Virus record (IMG/VR): IMGVR_UViG_2548876954_000010 | Span: 1-30,963 of that record | From: a virus | Taxonomy: Duplodnaviria; Heunggongvirae; Uroviricota; Caudoviricetes | DNA length: 30,963 nt | Strand: one strand, 5' to 3' | Shown: piece after piece, positions 3,671-11,458 of the stretch | Layout: every line of letters starts with the position of its first letter | Numbering within the stretch: the first letter of the stretch is position 1 | Program-made: the position numbers and the translations under genes | The notes under the pieces: generated by a model | What the model was told of the DNA's origin: nothing | Databases searched by the model: none | The model's input: only the letters and a program-made list of their open reading frames with translations

Positions 3671-3972
3671 AAGCGGGTGAACGTCTGGCCGGTCTCAATC
3701 ATGTAGCTGAATTGCGCGCGAGATATTGGGGCGATAGTTGGAAAGAGGTTGAGCGCTTTGTCGATGATATGCGCGATAAACGTGACTCTCAATTTGAAGA
3801 AAATAATCGGGCGCTGGCCGCTATTTTCTTTCTGGCAAAAATACCGGCGGCTCGTCATGAGCTCGAATTAAGTGAGCTGACTACTGACGAGAAAAAAGCG
3901 CTTATTACAGCGATGAATCATTTTCGTGCAGTAGTGAGCTTATTTCCCAAACGGCTAACCATGCCGAATTAA
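3634..3972 (+). CDS. Early-operon protein of unknown function (fil/dhr region)
   Basis: 112-aa ORF with GGGGGA RBS at 3622-3627. Overlaps the previous gene by 37 nt in another frame; same strand and operon. Confidence 0.45.
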   Translation: MAIEAVSATIPLKAGERLAGLNHVAELRARYWGDSWKEVERFVDDMRDKRDSQFEENNRALAAIFFLAKIPAARHELELSELTTDEKKALITAMNHFRAVVSLFPKRLTMPN

Positions 3973-4038
3973 CCAAAACAGAAATTAATGGCGTAAACCC
4001 GCCGGGCATTTTATTGCCCAAAATCAGGAGAGTTAGTT

Positions 4039-4266
4039 ATGCGTAATACCGAACCCCGTAGTTTTAATACTGATAGTGACACGCTGGCCGTGCTGCTGAC
4101 AGATGCAAAAAAAGAAGAACGCAAAGACCGCGCACTCGCCGTTTCAATCCGTCTTGAGGCGCTGGCTATCCATATCACTAAAGAGGGCATGAACGGCACC
4201 GAAGCCGCTGAACTGCTGCGCCGTGAGGCCACCCGCTACGAAAACGAATCACAGGAGCTGCACTAA
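4039..4266 (+). CDS. Small conserved early protein (P2-family orf80/DUF2732-like)
   Basis: 75-aa ORF with CAGGAGAG RBS at 4024-4031. Charged helical protein immediately upstream of the zinc-finger gene, as in the P2 early operon. Confidence 0.5.
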   Translation: MRNTEPRSFNTDSDTLAVLLTDAKKEERKDRALAVSIRLEALAIHITKEGMNGTEAAELLRREATRYENESQELH

Positions 4267-4487
4267 TGGCCGACGCAATGGATTTAGCACAACTGCGCGA
4301 GCAGGAAGACCGCGAGCGCCACATCAGCAACGCGCGCAGCCGTATAGCAGCGTCCTCTCCTTTCCTCTGCGAAGAATGTGACTCACCAATCCCGGAAGCT
4401 CGCCGTGCTGCAATTCAGGGGGTGGCATTTTGCGTGACTTGTCAGCAAATCGCAGAGCTAAAAAACAAACACTATCGGGGGGTATAA
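4266..4487 (+). CDS. TraR/DksA-family C4 zinc-finger protein
   Basis: 73 aa with a CxxC...CxxC motif (CEECDSPIPEARRAAIQGVAFCVTCQ). Start overlaps the upstream stop. P2-like phages carry such a gene just before A. Confidence 0.7.
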   Translation: MADAMDLAQLREQEDRERHISNARSRIAASSPFLCEECDSPIPEARRAAIQGVAFCVTCQQIAELKNKHYRGV

Positions 4488-4488
4488 A

Positions 4489-6711
4489 TTGGCTGTTCAA
4501 TTCGCTTATCCGTGGAATGCTCCACGATCGGCTATAGCCAGCCCATACCTTACTTATAAGCAACAGCATCGCCGCGACCGTATGTTCGCGGCGATGCTGC
4601 ATGCTAAAAAGGTGCTTTCTCTCCAGCCCGACTGCGTGCGGTTAGATGTTTATCGCACTGCGGCAGTGCTGGAGCAAAATCAGGGCATTCAACGAGCCAA
4701 TGCCTTTTTGATCAGCTTCTGCAAAAAGGCATTGCCGCGTCTTGAATTGGTCGCAAAAAAATACGAATGCGCGGGTATCAACAGCAAGGTATCAACCTCT
4801 GTTTTTGGAAGTCATTTTGATACCCAGCTTATGCAATATCTGGCGTCACGCATGGTTAATATGGTCGCCCGATATAACCGCCTCCCGGATATGTCGCGCG
4901 CTGATGTTGACCTGTTGGCCGCCGATATTGCTAATTTCATTCGTGGTGAACTTGCCAACATTAATGACCACGGATTCGGCGAGCTTAAAACGCTGTACAC
5001 CTGGTATAATCGTGCTGGCTTTATTTCCCTCCAGTTCAACGTTATCCCCCCCCATTGGGATCGGGTTGCAAAAAAATATGTTGGCGCGGATGAAATCGCA
5101 CCGGCTATCGCCAAGATGTTTAACGATGGGTGGTGGCGTGGTCGTTTGCGCCGGGTTGCAGCTACGTGGCGCGAACACCTGCAAATTGCAGTCGGCAACG
5201 TCAGCAAGAAAAAAAACACCTATGCGAGTAAAAACTGCGTGACTGACTGGCGTGAACAAAAGCGCCGAACTCGTGAATTTCTCAAAGGTCTGGATCTCGA
5301 AGACGAAGACGGCAACCGTATCAGCCTGATTGAAAAATATGATGGCTCAGTTGCTAACCCTGCGATTCGCCGCTGTGAGCTCATGACTCGCATTCGTGGG
5401 TTTGAAAACATCTGTAATGAGCTCGGTTATGTCGGTGAGTTTTACACTCTGACCGCGCCGTCGAAATATCACGCCACGACTAAAGCCGGTTACCGTAACA
5501 GCAAATGGAGCGGTGCCAGCCCGGCTGACACGCAAAACTATCTAACTGATATCTGGGCGCGTATCCGTGCCAAACTGCATCGGGAAGATGTCCGTATTTT
5601 CGGTATTCGTGTCGCCGAGCCCCATCACGACGGTACTCCACACTGGCACATGCTGATGTTCATGCTGCCGGAAGATGTTGAATATGTTCGCTCCATCGTC
5701 CGTAAATACGCGTGGAAAGAAGACCGCCGCGAACTGAAAAGCGATAAGGCAAAAAAAGCACGTTTCCACGCCGAGTCCATTGACCCGGAGAAAGGCAGCG
5801 CAACCGGCTATGTTGCTAAATACATATCAAAAAATATCGACGGTTATGCTCTCGATGGTGAAACCGATGATGAAAGCGGTGAACTGCTGAAAGAGACAGC
5901 CCCCGCCGTTTCAGCATGGGCTTCGCGCTGGCACATCCGTCAGTTTCAGTTTATCGGTGGTGCGCCGGTGACGGTTTACCGTGAGTTGCGTCGCCTCGCT
6001 GATACCGAAACCGCGCACGGACTGAGCGTTGAGTTTGCCGCCGTCCATGATGCCGCCGACGCTGGTGACTGGGCTGGTTATGTTAATGCGCAGGGTGGAC
6101 CGTTTGTCCGTCGCGATGATTTACAGGTGCGCACACTGTATGAACCACGTACCGAGCTTAATCAGTACGGTGAGGAAACGGTATGTATTAAGGGGGTCTA
6201 CGATTCCTCCATAGGTGCAGGTAGCCCGATTTTAACCCGGCTCACTCAGTGGAAGATTGTTCCGAAGCATGCTGTTGATTTGGCCGTTGACCTTCAGGAC
6301 GGCAAAGCCGTCCCTCGGAGTTCTGTCAATAACTGTACGGGAAGCGAAAACGCTCCACCGGTACTGGATTTGACAAAGCCCCTGAGTCGACGCGAAAGAC
6401 GAGAGCTAACCAACCGACTCAGGAAGCAAAAATCAGCAATACGGCGAAAGTTCAGCCACGGAACGGATGAGCAAAACGCAGCTATAGCTAAAACTATCGA
6501 CGAGATACAACTGACAACCGGCATTACAATCAGCCGGAGCGAAGCCCTGCACCTGATGGCCGGTGGTAAAAGTTGTTTTGATGGCAAATGGCTACGCGGA
6601 ACGGCCAAAGGGGAAATATTTTCCGCAGCACCATCGCATGAGGCTAAAGCTCGGAAAATCCTTAATCGTGTTGCGGCGATGGCTGAATCATCAAAACCAA
6701 CACATGAGTAA
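4489..6711 (+). CDS. A: Rolling-circle replication initiator endonuclease (P2 gpA family)
   Basis: 740-aa ORF. Contains the HUH-like motif region (EPHHDGTPHWHMLMF) and paired tyrosines in GYVAKYISKNIDGYAL. Codon at 4489 is TTG; the first in-frame ATG is at 4582, so the exact start is uncertain. Confidence 0.9.
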   Translation: MAVQFAYPWNAPRSAIASPYLTYKQQHRRDRMFAAMLHAKKVLSLQPDCVRLDVYRTAAVLEQNQGIQRANAFLISFCKKALPRLELVAKKYECAGINSKVSTSVFGSHFDTQLMQYLASRMVNMVARYNRLPDMSRADVDLLAADIANFIRGELANINDHGFGELKTLYTWYNRAGFISLQFNVIPPHWDRVAKKYVGADEIAPAIAKMFNDGWWRGRLRRVAATWREHLQIAVGNVSKKKNTYASKNCVTDWREQKRRTREFLKGLDLEDEDGNRISLIEKYDGSVANPAIRRCELMTRIRGFENICNELGYVGEFYTLTAPSKYHATTKAGYRNSKWSGASPADTQNYLTDIWARIRAKLHREDVRIFGIRVAEPHHDGTPHWHMLMFMLPEDVEYVRSIVRKYAWKEDRRELKSDKAKKARFHAESIDPEKGSATGYVAKYISKNIDGYALDGETDDESGELLKETAPAVSAWASRWHIRQFQFIGGAPVTVYRELRRLADTETAHGLSVEFAAVHDAADAGDWAGYVNAQGGPFVRRDDLQVRTLYEPRTELNQYGEETVCIKGVYDSSIGAGSPILTRLTQWKIVPKHAVDLAVDLQDGKAVPRSSVNNCTGSENAPPVLDLTKPLSRRERRELTNRLRKQKSAIRRKFSHGTDEQNAAIAKTIDEIQLTTGITISRSEALHLMAGGKSCFDGKWLRGTAKGEIFSAAPSHEAKARKILNRVAAMAESSKPTHE

Positions 6712-6785
6712 TTCATATCCATATCATGCACATACGGCAATCGCTCTATTCGTTTTTTTTCTTCCCATTTTTTGCCAATACGTGT

Positions 6786-6805
6786 TACTGTATAAATATA
6801 CAGTA
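6786..6805. promoter_or_regulatory. LexA (SOS) box overlapping a candidate promoter
   Basis: TACTGTATAAATATACAGTA is a near-perfect match to the E. coli LexA consensus (CTGT-N8-ACAG, palindromic). Candidate -35 TTGCCA lies upstream; a GGGAGGGA RBS and ATG at 6825 follow. Confidence 0.75.
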
Positions 6806-6824
6806 ACCCTGTGGGAGGGATTTC

Positions 6825-7007
6825 ATGGTTGGCGAACATTGCAGCCGAACGCAGCAAAAGTGGGCTTGTGTGCAATTTATTGCCGAGGTATCTCTGATTG
6901 CAAACTGCAAGCCATCAGACTTAAAGCTCGCGCTCACTCTCATTGCAGACCTAGCAAACAGCGAAAATAACGAAACCGAAGATGATAATTTTTATAAGGC
7001 TGATTAG
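6825..7007 (+). CDS. LexA-controlled small protein; possibly the N-terminal part of a Tum-type antirepressor
   Basis: 60-aa ORF with a strong RBS (GGGAGGGA, spacing 4) 20 bp downstream of the LexA box. It is followed within 3 bp by a dinI-like reading frame. 186 Tum is an SOS-induced antirepressor whose C-terminal part is DinI-like (recollection). Confidence 0.45.
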   Translation: MVGEHCSRTQQKWACVQFIAEVSLIANCKPSDLKLALTLIADLANSENNETEDDNFYKAD

Positions 7008-7009
7008 AT

Positions 7010-7240
7010 TATGAGAATCAATATCACGTTGGATAAAGAACAAAAAATTAGGGCAACAGATCATTGATGCTTTTCAGAATGAAATAACACATCGAGTACA
7101 ATGCGTTTTCCTGCAACAAAAGTTAACGTTAAGAAAGGGTCAATGACTAGTGTAGAGGCTATCGGATTCGATAAAGAGGCGGACAGAGAAACATTAGGCA
7201 GCATATTACAAGAGATGTGGGAAGACGATAGCTGGCGTTA
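7010..7240 (+). pseudogene. dinI-family gene disrupted by two frameshifts (DinI-like domain of a tum-type locus)
   Basis: Three collinear segments across two frames read MRINITLDKEQKIRATDH* / IDAFQNEITHRVQCVF... / MTSVEAIGFDKEADRETLGSILQEMWEDDSWR*. Together they track E. coli DinI end to end as I recall it (MRIEVT..., ...IDALAGELSRRIQYAF..., ...KEDKQRISEILQETWESADDWF...). Stops fall at 7064-7066 and 7143-7145. Confidence 0.5.
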
Positions 7241-7258
7241 AACATAATAACCGTGCTG

Positions 7259-7312
7259 GCGCAAAAACTAGCTTTTTGCGTCGGCGGGGTTGAGTAACGA
7301 GCCCACGAGGCT
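7259..7312. repeat. Copy A of a composite motif: 8-bp-stem hairpin followed by a conserved ~30-nt box
   Basis: Hairpin CGCAAAAA-ctagc-TTTTTGCG (7260-7280), then tcGGCGGGGTTGAGTAACGAGCCCACGAGGC. A second copy lies at 7664-7718. Confidence 0.5.
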
Positions 7313-7440
7313 TAAGTCCTGCCTTTCAAAATTTCTCAATGTGCTATTGATGACACGCCCATGATTAATGAGGCATGACCTGAGATAGTTTTATAGTGGC
7401 GTTTTGACGGCACTGATTAAAATTCATTGAGGGTGATAAT

Positions 7441-7650
7441 ATGCATCGACTACCAGGTGAAATTCCGCATCACAAAACTAAAAGCATCAAACTGATGGCC
7501 ATCGTTCATCGTCTGCAGCAGATAATGGTCAATGAGAATTTGACACCCACAGAGCTGGTCGGGTGTGCCGAAATAGTCAGGGATAATTACGGCAAGCTGG
7601 ATAGCATCAGCAGGCCGACACAATACGCCCCCCCACCACGTCGACGATAG
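7441..7650 (+). CDS. Hypothetical 69-aa protein
   Basis: ORF with a good RBS (GAGGGTGA) and ATG at 7441. Lies between the two copies of the hairpin-plus-box motif. No recognisable motif. Confidence 0.45.
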   Translation: MHRLPGEIPHHKTKSIKLMAIVHRLQQIMVNENLTPTELVGCAEIVRDNYGKLDSISRPTQYAPPPRRR

Positions 7651-7663
7651 CAAACGTCGTCAA

Positions 7664-7718
7664 GCGCTGAAACTCGCTTTCAGTGCTGACGGGGTTGAAC
7701 AACGAGCCACGCGAGGCG
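7664..7718. repeat. Copy B of the composite hairpin-plus-box motif
   Basis: Hairpin GCGCTGAAA-ctcgc-TTTCAGTGC, then tGACGGGGTTGAACAACGAGCCACGCGAGGC. The stem differs from copy A at paired positions (AA/TT in A versus TG/CA in B), so base-pairing is preserved. Confidence 0.5.
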
Positions 7719-8150
7719 TTAGTTGGTTACCTGATTGACACCGAGCGAAAGCAGGTTTGTCACCGCACCGGCAATAACTCCGGGTGTCCCGTCTTTCACC
7801 GCACTGATAATCTTATCGCCCAGCGTTTCATTACCGCCGAGTGCCTCGGGCTTTTTGTTGAGCACGGCGAGTGCTTTCTCGGTCAGGCGCACATCCCGAA
7901 AATAAGTCTGATTGTCTGTTTCATACTGGATGTAGCCGTTTTCACTGAGAAAAGTGAATGTACCCTCAACCACACTACGCAACTGATTCAGTGCTTTCAT
8001 TTCCGGTGAGTTAAGTTGGTCAAAGTAGTCATCAGGTAGCGCGGCGTTAAATTTTTCGTAGGTGATGACCTGCGGCACCGGGAAGTTATCCCATAACACC
8101 GCAAAAATTTCCGCCGTCTGCTGATTAAATAATTCGAGGTTTTTGGACAT
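7719..8150 (-). CDS. Hypothetical 143-aa protein (orphan gene in the A-to-cos accessory region)
   Basis: Minus-strand ORF with AAGGGA RBS upstream of ATG (8148-8150). Ends immediately beside motif copy B. No motif I can assign. Confidence 0.55.
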   Translation of the reverse strand: MSKNLELFNQQTAEIFAVLWDNFPVPQVITYEKFNAALPDDYFDQLNSPEMKALNQLRSVVEGTFTFLSENGYIQYETDNQTYFRDVRLTEKALAVLNKKPEALGGNETLGDKIISAVKDGTPGVIAGAVTNLLSLGVNQVTN

Positions 8151-8340
8151 GCATAATTCCCTTTCATCGATAGACCCGTTTGCCGATTGGGCAAAAAAGC
8201 TGACCGTAATGGCTTCAAATAACGACCTGAGTTCTCGTGAGGTGGAAAGCTACACCGAAAAAATGGTCGAGCAAGCCAGTAAAGATGAGCTTACGGTCGT
8301 TATCAAACACCTGTTAAACCACATCAGAATGCACAAATAA
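8143..8340 (+). CDS. Hypothetical small protein (65 aa); weak call
   Basis: ORF whose start overlaps head-to-head with the start of the 143-aa minus-strand gene. RBS is poor at 8143. A terminator follows at 8481-8505. May be spurious or start internally. Confidence 0.3.
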   Translation: MDMHNSLSSIDPFADWAKKLTVMASNNDLSSREVESYTEKMVEQASKDELTVVIKHLLNHIRMHK

Positions 8341-8480
8341 AATGATCTATATCAATATGTTATCTCTCGTTTATGAAAATCGGTGGACGACGATTTTTCT
8401 GCTGATTTTTGACAGCATGTGCCTCAATAGTGTTATTGGCGCATTACGCGGCCAGTAATCGCGCCAAAACCAGCCCCAAA

Positions 8481-8505
8481 CCGGCACCGTGAATGCCGGT
8501 TTTTT
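8481..8505 (+). terminator. Rho-independent terminator
   Basis: Stem CCGGCA (8481-8486) / TGCCGG (8494-8499) with a 7-nt loop, followed by TTTTTT (8500-8505). Confidence 0.55.
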
Positions 8506-8662
8506 ATGCCATTTTTCCGCGATTTCCCCGTTTTAGCCGTGCATGCAACAGGTGCATGGTTTTGCATTCGCAGGGGTTGCCCGTTCTGACCGTGCGCCGC
8601 CAGAGCTGGCGCGGATCCCGAGAGTTCATGCAACTGCATTAAAACCGCCCCGTAAAGCGGGC

Positions 8663-8681
8663 AGGCGTGGCGGGGAAAGTA
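8663..8681. other. cos: cos site (cohesive-end sequence) of the P2/186 family
   Basis: ggcgtggcggggaaagtat followed by tgcgcgctg matches my recollection of the P2 left end (GGCGAGGCGGGGAAAGCAC TGCGCGCTG...) and the 186 cos. It sits in a GC-rich hairpin-dense ~250-bp segment between the A-side accessory genes and the portal gene, where the permuted prophage map puts cos. Confidence 0.6.
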
Positions 8682-8796
8682 TTGCGCGCTGGATCATAAA
8701 CGATTGCTTACTTTGAAGAAAATAGTGTGCTTATGAACTGCAAACTTTATACAATCAGAATTTGCCGAATCTCTTTTTTGATGAATAAGGGTTTTT

Positions 8797-9624
8797 ATGA
8801 CTGGTGTTGTGAATTACGATGTGGTTATCAGGAGTGGTGATCAGCCCGTTGATATGGATTATGCGCTGGAAACGTTAGGCGGAGCATCGGAAGTTACCTG
8901 TTTACTAGCAGAAGCAATCCTACAAAAAAAAGTCGTTAAAAGAAGAAGTCCTGCTAATAAAGCGCGAGCAGTTTTACATCAGAGCTTCCCGAGTTCTTAT
9001 GGACAAAACTTTGCGTTAGCTATAGATGACCCAATATTAAAAGCTCGTTTAGTTGAAATAACCAACCCTGTACTTGCGGAAATTATGGGATTTTACATAT
9101 CTGAAGCTATGTATATACAACCTCCGGCTTTATCAGCACGAGCCAGACATTATATTGAAGAGCTTGAATATCTTGAAGATGAAATTATAAGCCGTATTCG
9201 GAATCCTTTAATACGCATGCACAAAATTAATTACCGTCGCAACTGGGATATTGATTTCAATTTTAAACCTGATGGTAGACAAAGAAAAATAGTGACTTTA
9301 AATACTAGGACTGCAGCAAATCTAACTCACACAACGGTTGAAAGGGAAAGATTTAATATAATTGCAATGGTTACAAGATTCAACTCTCGTACAGGTAATG
9401 GCCGTTTAGTGCTACAAGATGAGGACGAGACTGTTGCTTTTGGTTTTGCCAACCAATTAGGAATGGTTCCGTCCGCACAGAAAAGAATGATTTCTTTGAA
9501 TCTACATAATAATAATGGAAGATCCGATAATTACATATATCTTAGTATGACTGTCAGTAGGGTTGTAATTATGAGCGGTGAGACTGTAAAATATGCAGTA
9601 CACTCTGTGCGTGTATTGGAATAA
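8797..9624 (+). CDS. Hypothetical soluble 275-aa protein, first gene of an AT-rich two-gene cargo cassette
   Basis: ORF with AAGGG RBS. Markedly AT-rich compared with the flanking phage backbone. No TM segment or catalytic motif I can recognise. Its stop (9622-9624) is 2 nt from the next start. Confidence 0.7.
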   Translation: MTGVVNYDVVIRSGDQPVDMDYALETLGGASEVTCLLAEAILQKKVVKRRSPANKARAVLHQSFPSSYGQNFALAIDDPILKARLVEITNPVLAEIMGFYISEAMYIQPPALSARARHYIEELEYLEDEIISRIRNPLIRMHKINYRRNWDIDFNFKPDGRQRKIVTLNTRTAANLTHTTVERERFNIIAMVTRFNSRTGNGRLVLQDEDETVAFGFANQLGMVPSAQKRMISLNLHNNNGRSDNYIYLSMTVSRVVIMSGETVKYAVHSVRVLE

Positions 9625-9626
9625 GT

Positions 9627-10376
9627 ATGAATAGAATTAAGTGCATATGTGGGTTGATACTAGCTGCTGCTTGGGCAGCGTACTATCTTCATTTTGGCAT
9701 AGACGGAAGCCTCTCCCAAAAAACTGAAGTTTGGGGACAGTTTGGCGACTACGTAGGTGGGGTGGTCAACCCCATTTTAAGTTTTATAACCATATATCTA
9801 CTTATTAACTCAATAGGGTTACAGCGCGAATCTAATGAAAGCTTAACCAATGAAATAAAAAGACAAGAGAAGCTAGAGGAATATAAAAAATTTGAGCTAC
9901 GATTCTTTCGCTTGATTGAATCGCAGGAGGAAAACTTCAGTCGTTTTAAAATATGTATATCACAACAGGATGATGATGAGCAAAATGTTGATGAACAGTT
10001 AGAAAAAACAGATGAAATATTGAGTGGTGGAGCAGCAGTAACATTCATTGAAGATTGTTTGTTACCCCTCAAAGAGGCTGGAGTTAGCAAGGAGCGTGTA
10101 TTCCATTGGTTAGATAGTTTGGATGATGATGGATCATTTTTTTCATTAGTAAGACGTTTCTATCTCATTCTCAAATTAGTCGATGCCAATACACTTACAA
10201 AAAGCGAGAGAGATGAAATGTATGAAACGTTGATTAATCTTACTGATATTAAAGTAATTAGCATCATTGCAATCTTGAGTTTGCATTATGATTGGTACGC
10301 AATCAAATACATTAAGGCAACAAAAATTCTTGACAAGGAAGGAGTTAGGGAATTCGTTGAAATGTATAAAATTTAA
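9627..10376 (+). CDS. Hypothetical membrane protein (two N-terminal TM helices plus acidic cytoplasmic domain), second gene of the cassette
   Basis: N-terminus has two hydrophobic helices (ICGLILAAAWAAYYLHF and VGGVVNPILSFITIYLLINSIGL). The rest is charged and Asp/Glu-rich. AT-rich, closely spaced after the upstream gene, followed by a terminator. Confidence 0.7.
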   Translation: MNRIKCICGLILAAAWAAYYLHFGIDGSLSQKTEVWGQFGDYVGGVVNPILSFITIYLLINSIGLQRESNESLTNEIKRQEKLEEYKKFELRFFRLIESQEENFSRFKICISQQDDDEQNVDEQLEKTDEILSGGAAVTFIEDCLLPLKEAGVSKERVFHWLDSLDDDGSFFSLVRRFYLILKLVDANTLTKSERDEMYETLINLTDIKVISIIAILSLHYDWYAIKYIKATKILDKEGVREFVEMYKI

Positions 10377-10447: not shown

Positions 10448-11458
10448 TTATCCGATTGTGTAATCTTTAAAGCTTATTACCTTCACCCCCAGCCAGTCAT
10501 TAATTTCTTTGAATCGCTCCTGCAACGGTGTTAACTCGTTGCGAACAAACACCTTTGCTACCCTCTCAACATCCCCGAGCGATGCGATGTTTTCAGGCTT
10601 GCCCCCCATCAACTGGAACGGCACGCGGTGCGCATCGAGCAGGTCAGCGGCGCTCACCTTTTTAATATTGAAAAAGTCATCTTTCGTGGCAACCTCACTC
10701 AGCGGCACAATCTTGATACCATCCGGTTTCCCGTTCGGTGCGTAGAAAAACAGGTTTTTAAAATTCCCGAGTCCCTTTGAATCACGCATCGCAGAACGCA
10801 GTGACTCGACGTCGGTGCTGCTTTGGGCAGCGTCGGTGACGTACATGATGTAACCCGCGTGCGCGCCATTCTGGTAATACTTGCGACGAAACAGGGTGGC
10901 GGATTCATTCAGCCAGGCGGAATTGAGTGCGCTCAGATATTCAGGCATACCGTAAAGCTCCTGATTAATGTCAGGCTCCAGCAGATGAAACACCGAGCCG
11001 GGTGCGAACTGATGTGGGTTGTTAAAGCTCGACACGTACCAGTAAACACCATCCTCAACGCCACGACGGGTATATTTAGCTGGCGATGTTTCCAGTTTTA
11101 AAAGGTGACCGGTAACACTCATGCGCTTCTCAAGATAACCGTTCGCAAAGACCAGATAATCCAGCACGAGGCGGCTGAAATCCTGACGCGACAGCAGCGG
11201 GTGCGGGATGTAGGTGCTCGCCAGAATGTTACGTTTCACGTAAATCGGCGAGCTGTGATGAACGGCGGCGCGCAGGCTTTTTGCCAGACCAGAGAAGTTG
11301 ACCGGCGGCTCGTACCACTTACCGTTATTGATGCACTCGACATAATCGAGGATATCGCGACGATCCAGAACGGCAGAGGGCTCGCCAAAGGTGAACGCCT
11401 CCATTTTTTGCGGTGCGCTAACGGTCGTTGTGGTGGGTATCTTCAGTTGCTTTTTCAT
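10448..11458 (-). CDS. Q: Portal protein (P2 gpQ family)
   Basis: 336-aa minus-strand ORF directly downstream of the terminase ATPase gene. N-terminal region (FTFGEPSAVLDRRDILDYVECINNGKWYEP) matches P2 Q as I recall it. Leftward Q-P pair next to cos as in P2. Confidence 0.9.
   Translation of the reverse strand: MKKQLKIPTTTTVSAPQKMEAFTFGEPSAVLDRRDILDYVECINNGKWYEPPVNFSGLAKSLRAAVHHSSPIYVKRNILASTYIPHPLLSRQDFSRLVLDYLVFANGYLEKRMSVTGHLLKLETSPAKYTRRGVEDGVYWYVSSFNNPHQFAPGSVFHLLEPDINQELYGMPEYLSALNSAWLNESATLFRRKYYQNGAHAGYIMYVTDAAQSSTDVESLRSAMRDSKGLGNFKNLFFYAPNGKPDGIKIVPLSEVATKDDFFNIKKVSAADLLDAHRVPFQLMGGKPENIASLGDVERVAKVFVRNELTPLQERFKEINDWLGVKVISFKDYTIG

What the first reader, a model, noticed from the sequence alone, without database searches (positions are those of the whole stretch)
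7441..8340. Orphan genes in the A-to-cos accessory region: 69-aa ORF, convergent 143-aa gene, and overlapping head-to-head small ORF
The interval between gene A and cos is where P2 carries its accessory genes tin and old (recollection). Here it holds instead a 69-aa gene, a convergent 143-aa gene with a good RBS and no recognisable domain, and a possible 65-aa ORF whose start overlaps the 143-aa gene start head-to-head. The head-to-head overlap means the two promoters and RBSs would interfere, which suggests antisense regulation or that only one of the two is real. This is a second cargo position distinct from the cos-to-Q cassette.
Basis: partly seen in the sequence, partly recalled or inferred. 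Interest (0 to 1): 0.45.

Follow-up and report, generated by a model that had tools for sequence, protein, structure and literature searches.

The report
Head-to-head prophage gene pair sharing CATG
The three small genes next to this prophage's packaging site are real and widespread, and two of them form a back-to-back pair with overlapping start codons that recurs in many unrelated prophages and probably lets only one of the two be expressed at a time.

Summary
All three ORFs exist at the stated coordinates and all three are real genes. In each, only the proposed reading frame is free of stops across diverged relatives, with pN/pS of 0.08-0.33. None is an orphan.

- **ORF69** is the homologue of phage PSP3 gp37.
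- **ORF143** is an acidic winged-helix protein from a large family with no Pfam entry (754 clusters at 50% identity).
- **The "65-aa" ORF** really starts at ATG 8149 and is 63 aa, a three-helix bundle.

The starts of ORF143 and ORF63 share the palindrome CATG (8148-8151). This overlap is present in 50 of 50 enteric relatives. It recurs in distant versions of the pair (25-45% identity) in Pseudomonas, Aeromonas, Pectobacterium and a Mu-like coliphage.

In every context I could read, the small gene runs with the neighbouring lytic or SOS operon and the winged-helix gene runs against it. In lambda-like Pseudomonas prophages the pair sits between large terminase and gpW with gaps of only 1 and 40 nt.

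The best reading is an antisense-coupled either/or unit, similar to an excludon. This is inferred from anatomy, not measured. The proteins' biochemical role is still unknown.

The locus lies in the published P2 gpA-gpQ hotspot and is already listed there as "hypothetical".

The parts
6774..6805 (+). SOS promoter similar to p95 of phage 186, with a perfect LexA box (CTGTATAAATATACAG, 6788-6803), upstream of the tumA-like gene. It is the likely source of rightward transcription that enters the finding's interval.
   Evidence: LexA control of tum in phage 186 is established knowledge and was not tested here.
6825..7007 (+). TumA-like gene (60 aa, phrog_1993)
   Evidence: PSP3 tumA sits at the same position.
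7011..7241 (+). DinI/TumB-like gene, disrupted. An 18-codon N-terminal piece ends at a stop at 7065-7067, followed by a 46-aa ORF (7101-7241) that matches the DinI C-terminus.
   Evidence: PF06183, E = 3e-12, profile positions 19-62 only. The Midge and PSP3 genes are intact at 77 aa.
7259..7303 (.). Copy 1 of a 45-nt direct repeat, made of a long hairpin plus the box CGGGGTTGAGTAACGAGCC. It forms the left boundary of the ORF69 cassette.
   Evidence: + strand hairpin, z = -4.6.
7441..7650 (+). ORF69, homologue of PSP3 gp37 (phrog_11386). It has a conserved core KLMAxVxRLQQIMxNENLxPxELVGCAE and a C-terminal PPPRR tail.
7664..7708 (.). Copy 2 of the 45-nt repeat, lying between the ORF69 stop and the ORF143 stop. 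On the minus strand it is the likely terminator of ORF143.
   Evidence: Relatives that lack ORF69, such as Midge, have a single copy.
7719..8150 (-). ORF143: an acidic protein with an N-terminal winged-helix domain and two C-terminal helices (phrog_2266)
8026..8053 (+). Candidate rightward promoter for ORF63 inside ORF143 (TAGTCA-16-TAAATT). It is a weak consensus match but is conserved in 31 of 43 relatives, and it lies beside a dip in synonymous diversity.
   Evidence: No experimental support.
8148..8151 (.). The palindrome CATG, shared by the two divergent start codons
   Evidence: 50 of 50 loci; distant modules.
8149..8340 (+). ORF63: a small three-helix protein (phrog_2454) with the conserved motif NNDLSSREV...LLNHIRM
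8341..8440 (.). Conserved non-coding block between ORF63 and cos, function unknown
   Evidence: 80-100% column conservation.

Best explanation
The interval holds three real accessory genes of a PSP3/186-type P2-family prophage. They lie inside the known gpA-gpQ variable hotspot.

ORF69 is the PSP3 gp37 homologue. It sits in a cassette of about 405 bp bracketed by a repeated hairpin element, downstream of a LexA-controlled tum promoter.

ORF143 and ORF63 form a mobile two-gene module: an acidic winged-helix protein and a small helical protein, encoded back to back with start codons sharing CATG.

What is shown:
- Both genes are coding.
- The overlap is a conserved design found across gamma-proteobacterial prophages.
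- The small gene always points the same way as the flanking lytic or SOS operon, and the winged-helix gene points against it or with cI/int.

What is inferred:
- Because there is no intergenic DNA, each mRNA leader must be antisense to the other gene's ribosome site and start codon.
- The pair would therefore work as an either/or unit, similar to an excludon. The quiescent prophage makes the winged-helix protein.
- When lytic or SOS transcription passes through, it silences the winged-helix mRNA by collision and RNA pairing, and it also serves as the mRNA for the small protein.

My guess for the role:
- The winged-helix protein is a protein-binding factor expressed in the lysogen, for example for exclusion or defence.
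- The small protein counteracts or replaces it once the prophage itself goes lytic.
For: Coding status:
- dN/dS is 0.08 for ORF143 and 0.15-0.17 for ORF63.
- In the enteric group and in two Pseudomonas groups, the small-ORF frame is the only stop-free frame, with pN/pS 0.20-0.32.

Conserved overlap:
- It is present in 50 of 50 enteric loci.
- It is present as CATG in 17 distant loci, with abutting start codons in L057/L058 and a gap of about 15 nt in L076.
- It is also present in the Mu-like phage PhiKM.

Forced read-through:
- In L063 the module lies between the TerL stop (1-nt gap) and the gpW start (40-nt gap). Late transcription must therefore cross ORF143's counterpart antisense and the small ORF in sense.
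- The same logic applies inside a tail operon (L055, L066, L085) and inside an early operon between cII and A (L078).

Other support:
- The winged-helix gene alone, with its own 98-nt promoter region, occupies the same TerL-gpW site in L062.
- The window has a perfect LexA box and promoter upstream of the rightward genes.
- Synonymous diversity in ORF143 dips at codons 31-65 (pS 0.26-0.43, against 0.55-0.68 elsewhere). This lies next to a candidate rightward promoter conserved in 31 of 43 relatives.
- The family is acidic, with a median net charge of -5 to -6.
- It occurs only in prophage accessory positions: 11 of 50,697 phage records, 94 of 5,426 E. coli genomes, and 3 of 72,556 plasmids.
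- The excludon concept is described in PMC12288877.
Against: - No transcript, start-site or protein data were available.
- I found no convincing sigma-70-type leftward promoter for ORF143, inside ORF63 or to its right.
- ORF63 shows no dip in synonymous diversity beyond its first 10 codons.
- Roughly half of the distant winged-helix genes have no small partner, so the coupling is not obligatory.
- Homology between enteric ORF63 and the Pseudomonas-type small proteins is not demonstrable (hhalign probability 0.1%). They may be positional analogues only.
- The hairpins after tumB and ORF69 might terminate rightward transcription before it reaches ORF143.
- The defence-plus-antidote role is a guess from context.
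Confidence: 0.45

Rival explanations
1. The two genes are independent accessory genes. The CATG overlap is just compact packing with no regulatory consequence, and each gene has an adequate promoter inside the other.
For: - Many family members lack the small partner.
- About 9% of ATG-started ORFs in the same loci have some divergent ORF of at least 60 aa sharing CATG. This count includes the modules themselves.
Against: - The exact 2-nt overlap persists from 100% down to about 25% identity and across five kinds of phage context.
- With zero intergenic DNA the two transcripts must overlap, and overlapping convergent transcription normally interferes (PMC12288877; PMC2760811).
Confidence: 0.15
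2. The pair is a small genetic switch. The winged-helix protein would be a DNA-binding repressor and the small protein a Cro/Cox/Apl-like counter-regulator, working from face-to-face promoters as in the P2 C/Cox and 186 CI/Apl switches.
For: - The fold is a winged helix, with weak resemblance to MarR and PadR in the wing motif GYI...LTxKGL.
- Face-to-face promoters are typical of P2 and 186 switches (PMC7498355).
- In Aeromonas and Pseudomonas prophages the module sits next to cI or an HTH gene.
Against: - The family is acidic (pI about 5), and its putative recognition helix is hydrophobic with no conserved basic residues.
- There is no HTH or RHH signal in the small proteins.
- The module also sits inside head and tail operons, far from any immunity region.
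Confidence: 0.15
3. The pair is a toxin-antitoxin or abortive-infection pair. One product would be growth-inhibitory and the other its antidote, with antisense overlap adding a type-I-like layer of control.
For: - It lies in a hotspot where more than a third of cloned systems showed anti-phage activity.
- It is a mobile two-gene unit with opposed orientation, as in some restriction-modification modules with face-to-face promoters (PMC2760811).
Against: - No PADLOC, Pfam or NCBIfam match.
- No nuclease, kinase or membrane domain. By my own hand calculation, the C-terminal helix scores about 1.2 on the Kyte-Doolittle scale, below the threshold for a membrane span.
- The winged-helix gene occurs alone in many prophages.
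Confidence: 0.15
4. The pair is a core packaging accessory function tied to cos, terminase or portal.
For: It often lies next to packaging genes: cos and Q here, between TerL and gpW/portal in Pseudomonas, and next to terminase genes in L054, L070 and L081.
Against: - It is present in only 11 of 50,697 phage records and is absent from P2, 186 and PSP3.
- It is also found between tail genes, next to cI/int, and in an early operon.
Confidence: 0.05
5. Only one of the two overlapping ORFs is a real gene.
For: Divergent overlaps in genome annotations are often mis-called.
Against: - Both genes show frame-specific purifying selection with saturated synonymous sites.
- Both are intact in 50 of 50 loci, and their indels come in multiples of three.
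Confidence: 0.02

Closest known systems
Excludons (divergent neighbouring genes whose overlapping 5' transcripts give mutually exclusive expression; PMC12288877)
   Same: The genes are divergent, and each gene's leader must be antisense to the other. The predicted outcome is either/or expression through transcriptional interference and cleavage of the paired RNAs.
   Different: Here the overlap reaches the start codons themselves, so there is no intergenic DNA. The unit is a mobile phage cassette, and one arm is fed by the host phage's own lytic or SOS operon. No transcript data exist for it.
Face-to-face promoter switches of P2 (C/Cox) and 186 (CI/Apl, pR-pL), and the Ecl18kI restriction-modification module (PMC7498355, PMC2760811)
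   Same: Two opposed genes whose promoters fire towards each other, giving transcriptional interference.
   Different: Those switches have an intergenic control region with operators and DNA-binding regulators. This pair has none visible, its larger protein is acidic, and it is not located at the immunity region.
P2 old and tin (exclusion genes in the A-to-cos interval)
   Same: Same genomic slot, accessory status, and ORF143 points the same way as old (leftward from cos; the orientation of old is from my own knowledge).
   Different: No sequence or domain similarity. ORF143 has no ATPase or TOPRIM domain, and no function has been demonstrated.
MarR/PadR-type winged-helix regulators
   Same: The topology is alpha1-beta1-alpha2-alpha3-beta2-beta3 followed by C-terminal helices, with a wing motif GYI...LTxKGL.
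PSP3 gp37 (for ORF69)
   Same: 87% identity over 63 residues, with the same position and orientation downstream of tumA and tumB.
   Different: The gp37 family itself has no known function. In some relatives the gene lies on the cos side of the pair instead.

Membership tests
PHROG families phrog_11386 (ORF69), phrog_2266 (ORF143), phrog_2454 (ORF63) | Full-length profile match | tested here: met
   E = 1e-46, 1.5e-60 and 1.1e-39, each covering essentially the whole profile. All three families are of unknown function.
PSP3 gp37 family (ORF69) | Sequence similarity, plus position downstream of tumA/tumB in an Eganvirus-type genome | tested here: met
OLD-family nuclease / P2 old | ABC-type ATPase domain plus TOPRIM domain | tested here: not met
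   No such Pfam or PADLOC hit for any ORF in the interval. ORF143 is a 143-aa winged-helix protein.
Excludon | Divergent neighbouring genes | tested here: met
Excludon | Transcripts that overlap in antisense across the neighbour's 5' end | not testable with these tools
   Implied by the absence of intergenic DNA and by Shine-Dalgarno sequences lying inside the partner's codons. No RNA data.
Excludon | Mutually exclusive expression | not testable with these tools
   Needs strand-specific RNA or reporter data.
MarR/PadR winged-helix transcription factors | Winged-helix fold | tested here: met
MarR/PadR winged-helix transcription factors | Significant sequence match to the family profile | tested here: not met
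   No Pfam hit above threshold. The best match to a solved MarR sequence has E = 0.06.
MarR/PadR winged-helix transcription factors | Basic DNA-contacting recognition helix and wing | tested here: not met
   Median net charge -5 to -6 and pI about 5. No conserved Lys or Arg in helix 3 or the wing across the family.
Known anti-phage defence systems (PADLOC-DB 2.0) | Match to a defence-protein model | tested here: not met
   No hit for ORF69, ORF143 or ORF63.
T7 gp5.5 / gp5.7 (suggested in the Midge annotation for the ORF143 homologue) | Profile similarity | tested here: not met
   hhalign probability below 1% against both T7 proteins. The template was a single sequence, so the test is weak.

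The most novel reading that the evidence does not exclude
The winged-helix protein and its small head-to-head partner may be a previously unrecognised, widespread two-component prophage system. The lysogen-expressed winged-helix protein would act against incoming phages or satellites, or on a host target. The small protein, made only when the prophage's own lytic or SOS operon reads through, would be its built-in off-switch. Obligatory antisense overlap at a shared CATG start would be the control principle.
Probability: 0.25. Interest if true: 0.75.

Novelty: new variant of a known kind. Interest (0 to 1): 0.55.

Why it matters
- Divergent genes that overlap at their start codons are usually dismissed as annotation errors. 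Here both partners are demonstrably coding, and the arrangement is kept across prophages of at least four architectures and several bacterial orders.
- That makes it a clean natural case for studying how a mobile cassette can plug into a host operon so that one gene is read with the operon and the other against it.
- It also flags a family of 754 clusters, about 140 aa long and with no Pfam entry, sitting in phage defence hotspots. The family is small enough to clone and test directly.

Tried and rejected
- **T7 gp5.5/5.7 similarity.** The Midge record claims it, but hhalign did not reproduce it.
- **PSP3 gp38.** It occupies the same slot but is unrelated to ORF143.
- **Small-protein homology.** hhalign of the ORF63 family against the Pseudomonas-type small proteins was not significant. 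I therefore call them positional counterparts, not proven homologues.
- **RNA and promoter motifs.** Rfam found no known RNA family in 6700-8900. There is no Ogr-type TGT-N12-ACA late-promoter motif nearby. The consensus scan found only one sigma-70-like site in 6700-8900, and none for ORF143. My conservation-aware scan likewise gave no leftward candidate.
- **Membrane anchor.** I rejected the idea that the ORF143 C-terminus is a membrane anchor. Its hydrophobicity is about 1.2 by hand, and the helix is charged and amphipathic in distant members.
- **Locus searches.** Two search for related loci attempts with broad alignments failed for lack of a conserved stretch. A narrower alignment worked.
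- **Literature.** Searches by accession number and by "overlapping start codons" found nothing on this pair.
- **Antisense ORF.** The 108-aa ORF at 7683-8009 is spurious.

Full report
**Setting**

The window is a P2-family prophage of the PSP3/186 type. It is 100% identical to a prophage of E. coli TUM14697. The local gene order is:

| Feature | Coordinates | Strand |
|---|---|---|
| Replication gene A | 4489-6711 | + |
| TumA-like gene | 6825-7007 | + |
| Disrupted DinI/TumB-like gene | 7011-7241 | + |
| ORF69 | 7441-7650 | + |
| ORF143 | 7719-8150 | - |
| ORF63 | 8149-8340 | + |
| Non-coding DNA (about 320 bp) | 8341 to cos | |
| cos | about 8664-8682 | |
| Two-gene cassette | 8797-10376 | + |
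| Portal gene Q | 10448-11458 | - |

The cos position is inferred from the points where linear phage records such as Midge, SEN1 and FSL SP-004 end and from my own recollection of the 186-type cos sequence. PSP3 has the same order A, tumA, tumB, gp37, then a different gene (gp38), then cos.

**Are the ORFs real?**

All three ORFs are at the stated coordinates, and RefSeq annotates them. The only correction concerns the third ORF. Its conserved start is ATG 8149, not TTG 8143. The two divergent start codons therefore overlap by 2 nt within the palindrome CATG at 8148-8151.

I collected 49 related loci from isolated phages, IMG/VR contigs and E. coli genomes. ORF143 and ORF63 are intact in every one, with the same 2-nt overlap. 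ORF63 diverges to 48% amino-acid identity and its length changes only by whole codons.

Tests for selection:

| Gene | Result |
|---|---|
| ORF143 | dN/dS 0.08 |
| ORF63 | dN/dS 0.15-0.17 |
| ORF63, six-frame test | only stop-free frame, pN/pS 0.32, pS 0.62 |
| ORF69, six-frame test | only stop-free frame, pN/pS 0.33 |

The antisense 108-aa ORF inside ORF143 is broken by stops in most relatives. So all three genes are real, and the "only one is real" alternative is excluded.

**They are not orphans**

- Each gene matches a PHROG family of unknown function over its full length.
- ORF69 is the homologue of PSP3 gp37 and occurs in 34 phage records.
- ORF63 has 116 cluster representatives across Enterobacterales. 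Two of them are seen on at least 1,000 contigs in Salmonella.
- ORF143 has 72 close clusters. A profile search of 1.84 billion representatives found 754 at E <= 1e-3 and 143 at E <= 1e-10. The best 150 listed are mostly full-length and about 125-170 aa. None has a Pfam domain.
- The pair is accessory, not core. It occurs in 11 of 50,697 phage records, 94 of 5,426 complete E. coli genomes, always once and chromosomal, and 3 of 72,556 plasmids.
- Rousset et al. 2022 list this exact six-gene locus in their table of gpA-gpQ hotspot contents, all as "hypothetical". The hotspot is described.

**What the proteins look like**

- The AlphaFold2 model of ORF143 (pLDDT 80.7, pTM 0.77) has a canonical winged-helix topology over residues 3-96. 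A low-confidence linker and two C-terminal helices (110-142) follow.
- Foldseek against PDB gives nothing better than E = 0.09, but the list is dominated by winged helices.
- The family is acidic, with a median net charge of -5 to -6 and a pI of about 5. It lacks conserved basic residues in helix 3 and the wing. This argues against a classical repressor.
- ORF63 is predicted as a three-helix bundle (pLDDT 78.8) with no informative structural neighbours.

**The overlap is a conserved design**

Distant relatives of ORF143 (25-45% identity) lie in prophages of Pseudomonas, Aeromonas, Klebsiella, Leclercia, Pectobacterium and others.

- In 17 of these loci a divergent ORF of 72-91 aa starts with the same CATG overlap.
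- In L057 and L058 the two start codons abut.
- In L076 they are about 15 nt apart.
- The Mu-like coliphage PhiKM also has a CATG overlap with a 71-aa ORF.

These small ORFs share a motif, roughly Q..G..D.VRAR.YW...L....E.LAEAL. In two Pseudomonas subgroups they are the only stop-free frame, with pN/pS of 0.20-0.22 at saturated synonymous sites.

Two cautions apply:
- The bare presence of such an ORF is not rare in these GC-rich loci. About 9% of ATG-started ORFs have one, a count that includes the modules themselves. The selection test carries the weight.
- Profile comparison does not show that the enteric ORF63 family is homologous to the Pseudomonas-type small proteins. I treat them as positional counterparts.

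About half of the distant winged-helix genes have no small partner.

**Orientation rule and forced read-through**

In every context where I could identify the neighbours, the small gene points the same way as the flanking lytic genes. The winged-helix gene points against them, or the same way as cI and int.

| Loci | Position of the module |
|---|---|
| L063, L064, L068 (lambda-like) | between large terminase and gpW/portal |
| L070, L073 | between TerL and a primase |
| L055, L056, L061 | after tail gene D, next to an HTH gene |
| L066, L085 | within a tail operon |
| L078 | between cII and A in an early operon |
| L052, L057 | next to cI and int |
| PhiKM | between leftward genes |

In L063 the winged-helix stop is 1 nt from the TerL stop, and the small-ORF stop is 40 nt from the gpW start. 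The late operon must therefore transcribe antisense through the winged-helix gene and sense through the small gene to reach gpW and portal. The winged-helix promoter must lie inside the small gene or further downstream.

In L062 the winged-helix gene alone sits at the same TerL-gpW site, with a 98-nt upstream region of its own.

In the window, the rightward genes lie downstream of a promoter with a perfect LexA box at 6788-6803. LexA control of tum in phage 186 is established knowledge. SOS-induced transcription that passes the two hairpins would run antisense through ORF143 and into ORF63.

**Hints of embedded signals**

- Synonymous diversity in ORF143 falls to 0.26-0.43 at codons 31-65, against 0.55-0.68 in the rest of the gene.
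- This dip is adjacent to a weak rightward promoter-like site, TAGTCA-16-TAAATT at 8026-8053, that is conserved in 31 of 43 relatives.
- I found no comparable leftward site for ORF143. ORF63 shows reduced synonymous diversity only in its first 10 and last few codons.
- The promoter of ORF143 is therefore unresolved.

**The ORF69 cassette**

- A 45-nt direct repeat (7259-7303 and 7664-7708) brackets ORF69. Its conserved 19-nt box occurs nowhere else in the window, and chance would give about 0.05 matches.
- Relatives without ORF69, such as Midge and FSL SP-004, have one copy. Those with ORF69 have two.
- Each copy is a long hairpin followed by a conserved box. The two copies differ by paired changes that keep the stem: CAAAAA/TTTTTG against CTGAAA/TTTCAG.
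- In three relatives ORF69 lies on the cos side of the pair, always on the ORF63 strand.
- This fits gain and loss of the cassette by recombination at a repeated boundary element. On the minus strand the same element probably terminates ORF143.

**Interpretation**

The best-supported reading is an antisense-coupled either/or expression unit of the excludon kind (PMC12288877). It is carried on a mobile prophage cassette.

- Shown: both genes are real, the overlap is conserved, and the orientation rule holds.
- Inferred from geometry: the transcripts overlap, and expression is mutually exclusive.
- Guessed from context: the winged-helix protein acts in the lysogen and the small protein counteracts it during lytic growth.

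The rivals are incidental packing, a repressor/counter-repressor switch, a toxin-antitoxin or abortive-infection pair, and a packaging accessory. Each is listed with its evidence in the rival explanations.

**Verdict**

The genes were already catalogued as hypothetical proteins in a known hotspot. To my knowledge, the conserved start-codon-sharing module and the size of the winged-helix family have not been described.

Noticed in passing
window 6774-6805: A perfect LexA box (CTGTATAAATATACAG) lies inside a promoter-like TTGCCA...TATAAA, just upstream of the tumA-like gene. This prophage probably keeps the 186-type SOS induction circuit.
   Followed up: partly
window 7011-7241: The DinI/TumB-like gene is disrupted. 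An 18-codon N-terminal fragment ends in a stop, and only the C-terminal 46 aa remain as an ORF. Midge and PSP3 have an intact 77-aa gene.
   Followed up: partly
window 7259-7303 and 7664-7708: A 45-nt direct repeat (long hairpin with stem-preserving paired changes, plus a conserved 19-nt box) brackets the ORF69 cassette. Relatives without ORF69 have a single copy.
   Followed up: yes
window 8341-8440: A non-coding block to the right of ORF63 is 80-100% conserved among relatives that differ by up to about 25% elsewhere. Its function is unknown. It could hold the ORF143 promoter or a packaging-related site.
   Followed up: partly
window 8797-10376: The cos-to-Q cassette encodes two uncharacterised proteins: 275 aa (phrog_13337) and 249 aa (phrog_8999). 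The second has a weak N-terminal resemblance to ZorB/MotB-type membrane anchors (PADLOC E = 3e-4). The cassette is absent from several relatives.
   Followed up: no
L090 (phage PhiKM) 3345-4073, minus strand: A 242-aa protein has an N-terminal P-loop motif and a C-terminal 70 aa that match the small-partner profile (E = 2e-8). It lies convergent to the winged-helix gene. The small-partner domain can therefore occur fused to another domain.
   Followed up: partly
L062 and L075 (Pseudomonas prophages), about 3700-4440: The winged-helix gene occupies the same terminase-gpW site as in L063 but has no small partner. In L062 it has its own 98-nt upstream region instead.
   Followed up: partly
L051 4790-4996: In a P. 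aeruginosa prophage, a 68-aa ORF lies immediately upstream of the winged-helix gene on the same strand. It is unrelated in sequence to the divergent small partners.
   Followed up: no
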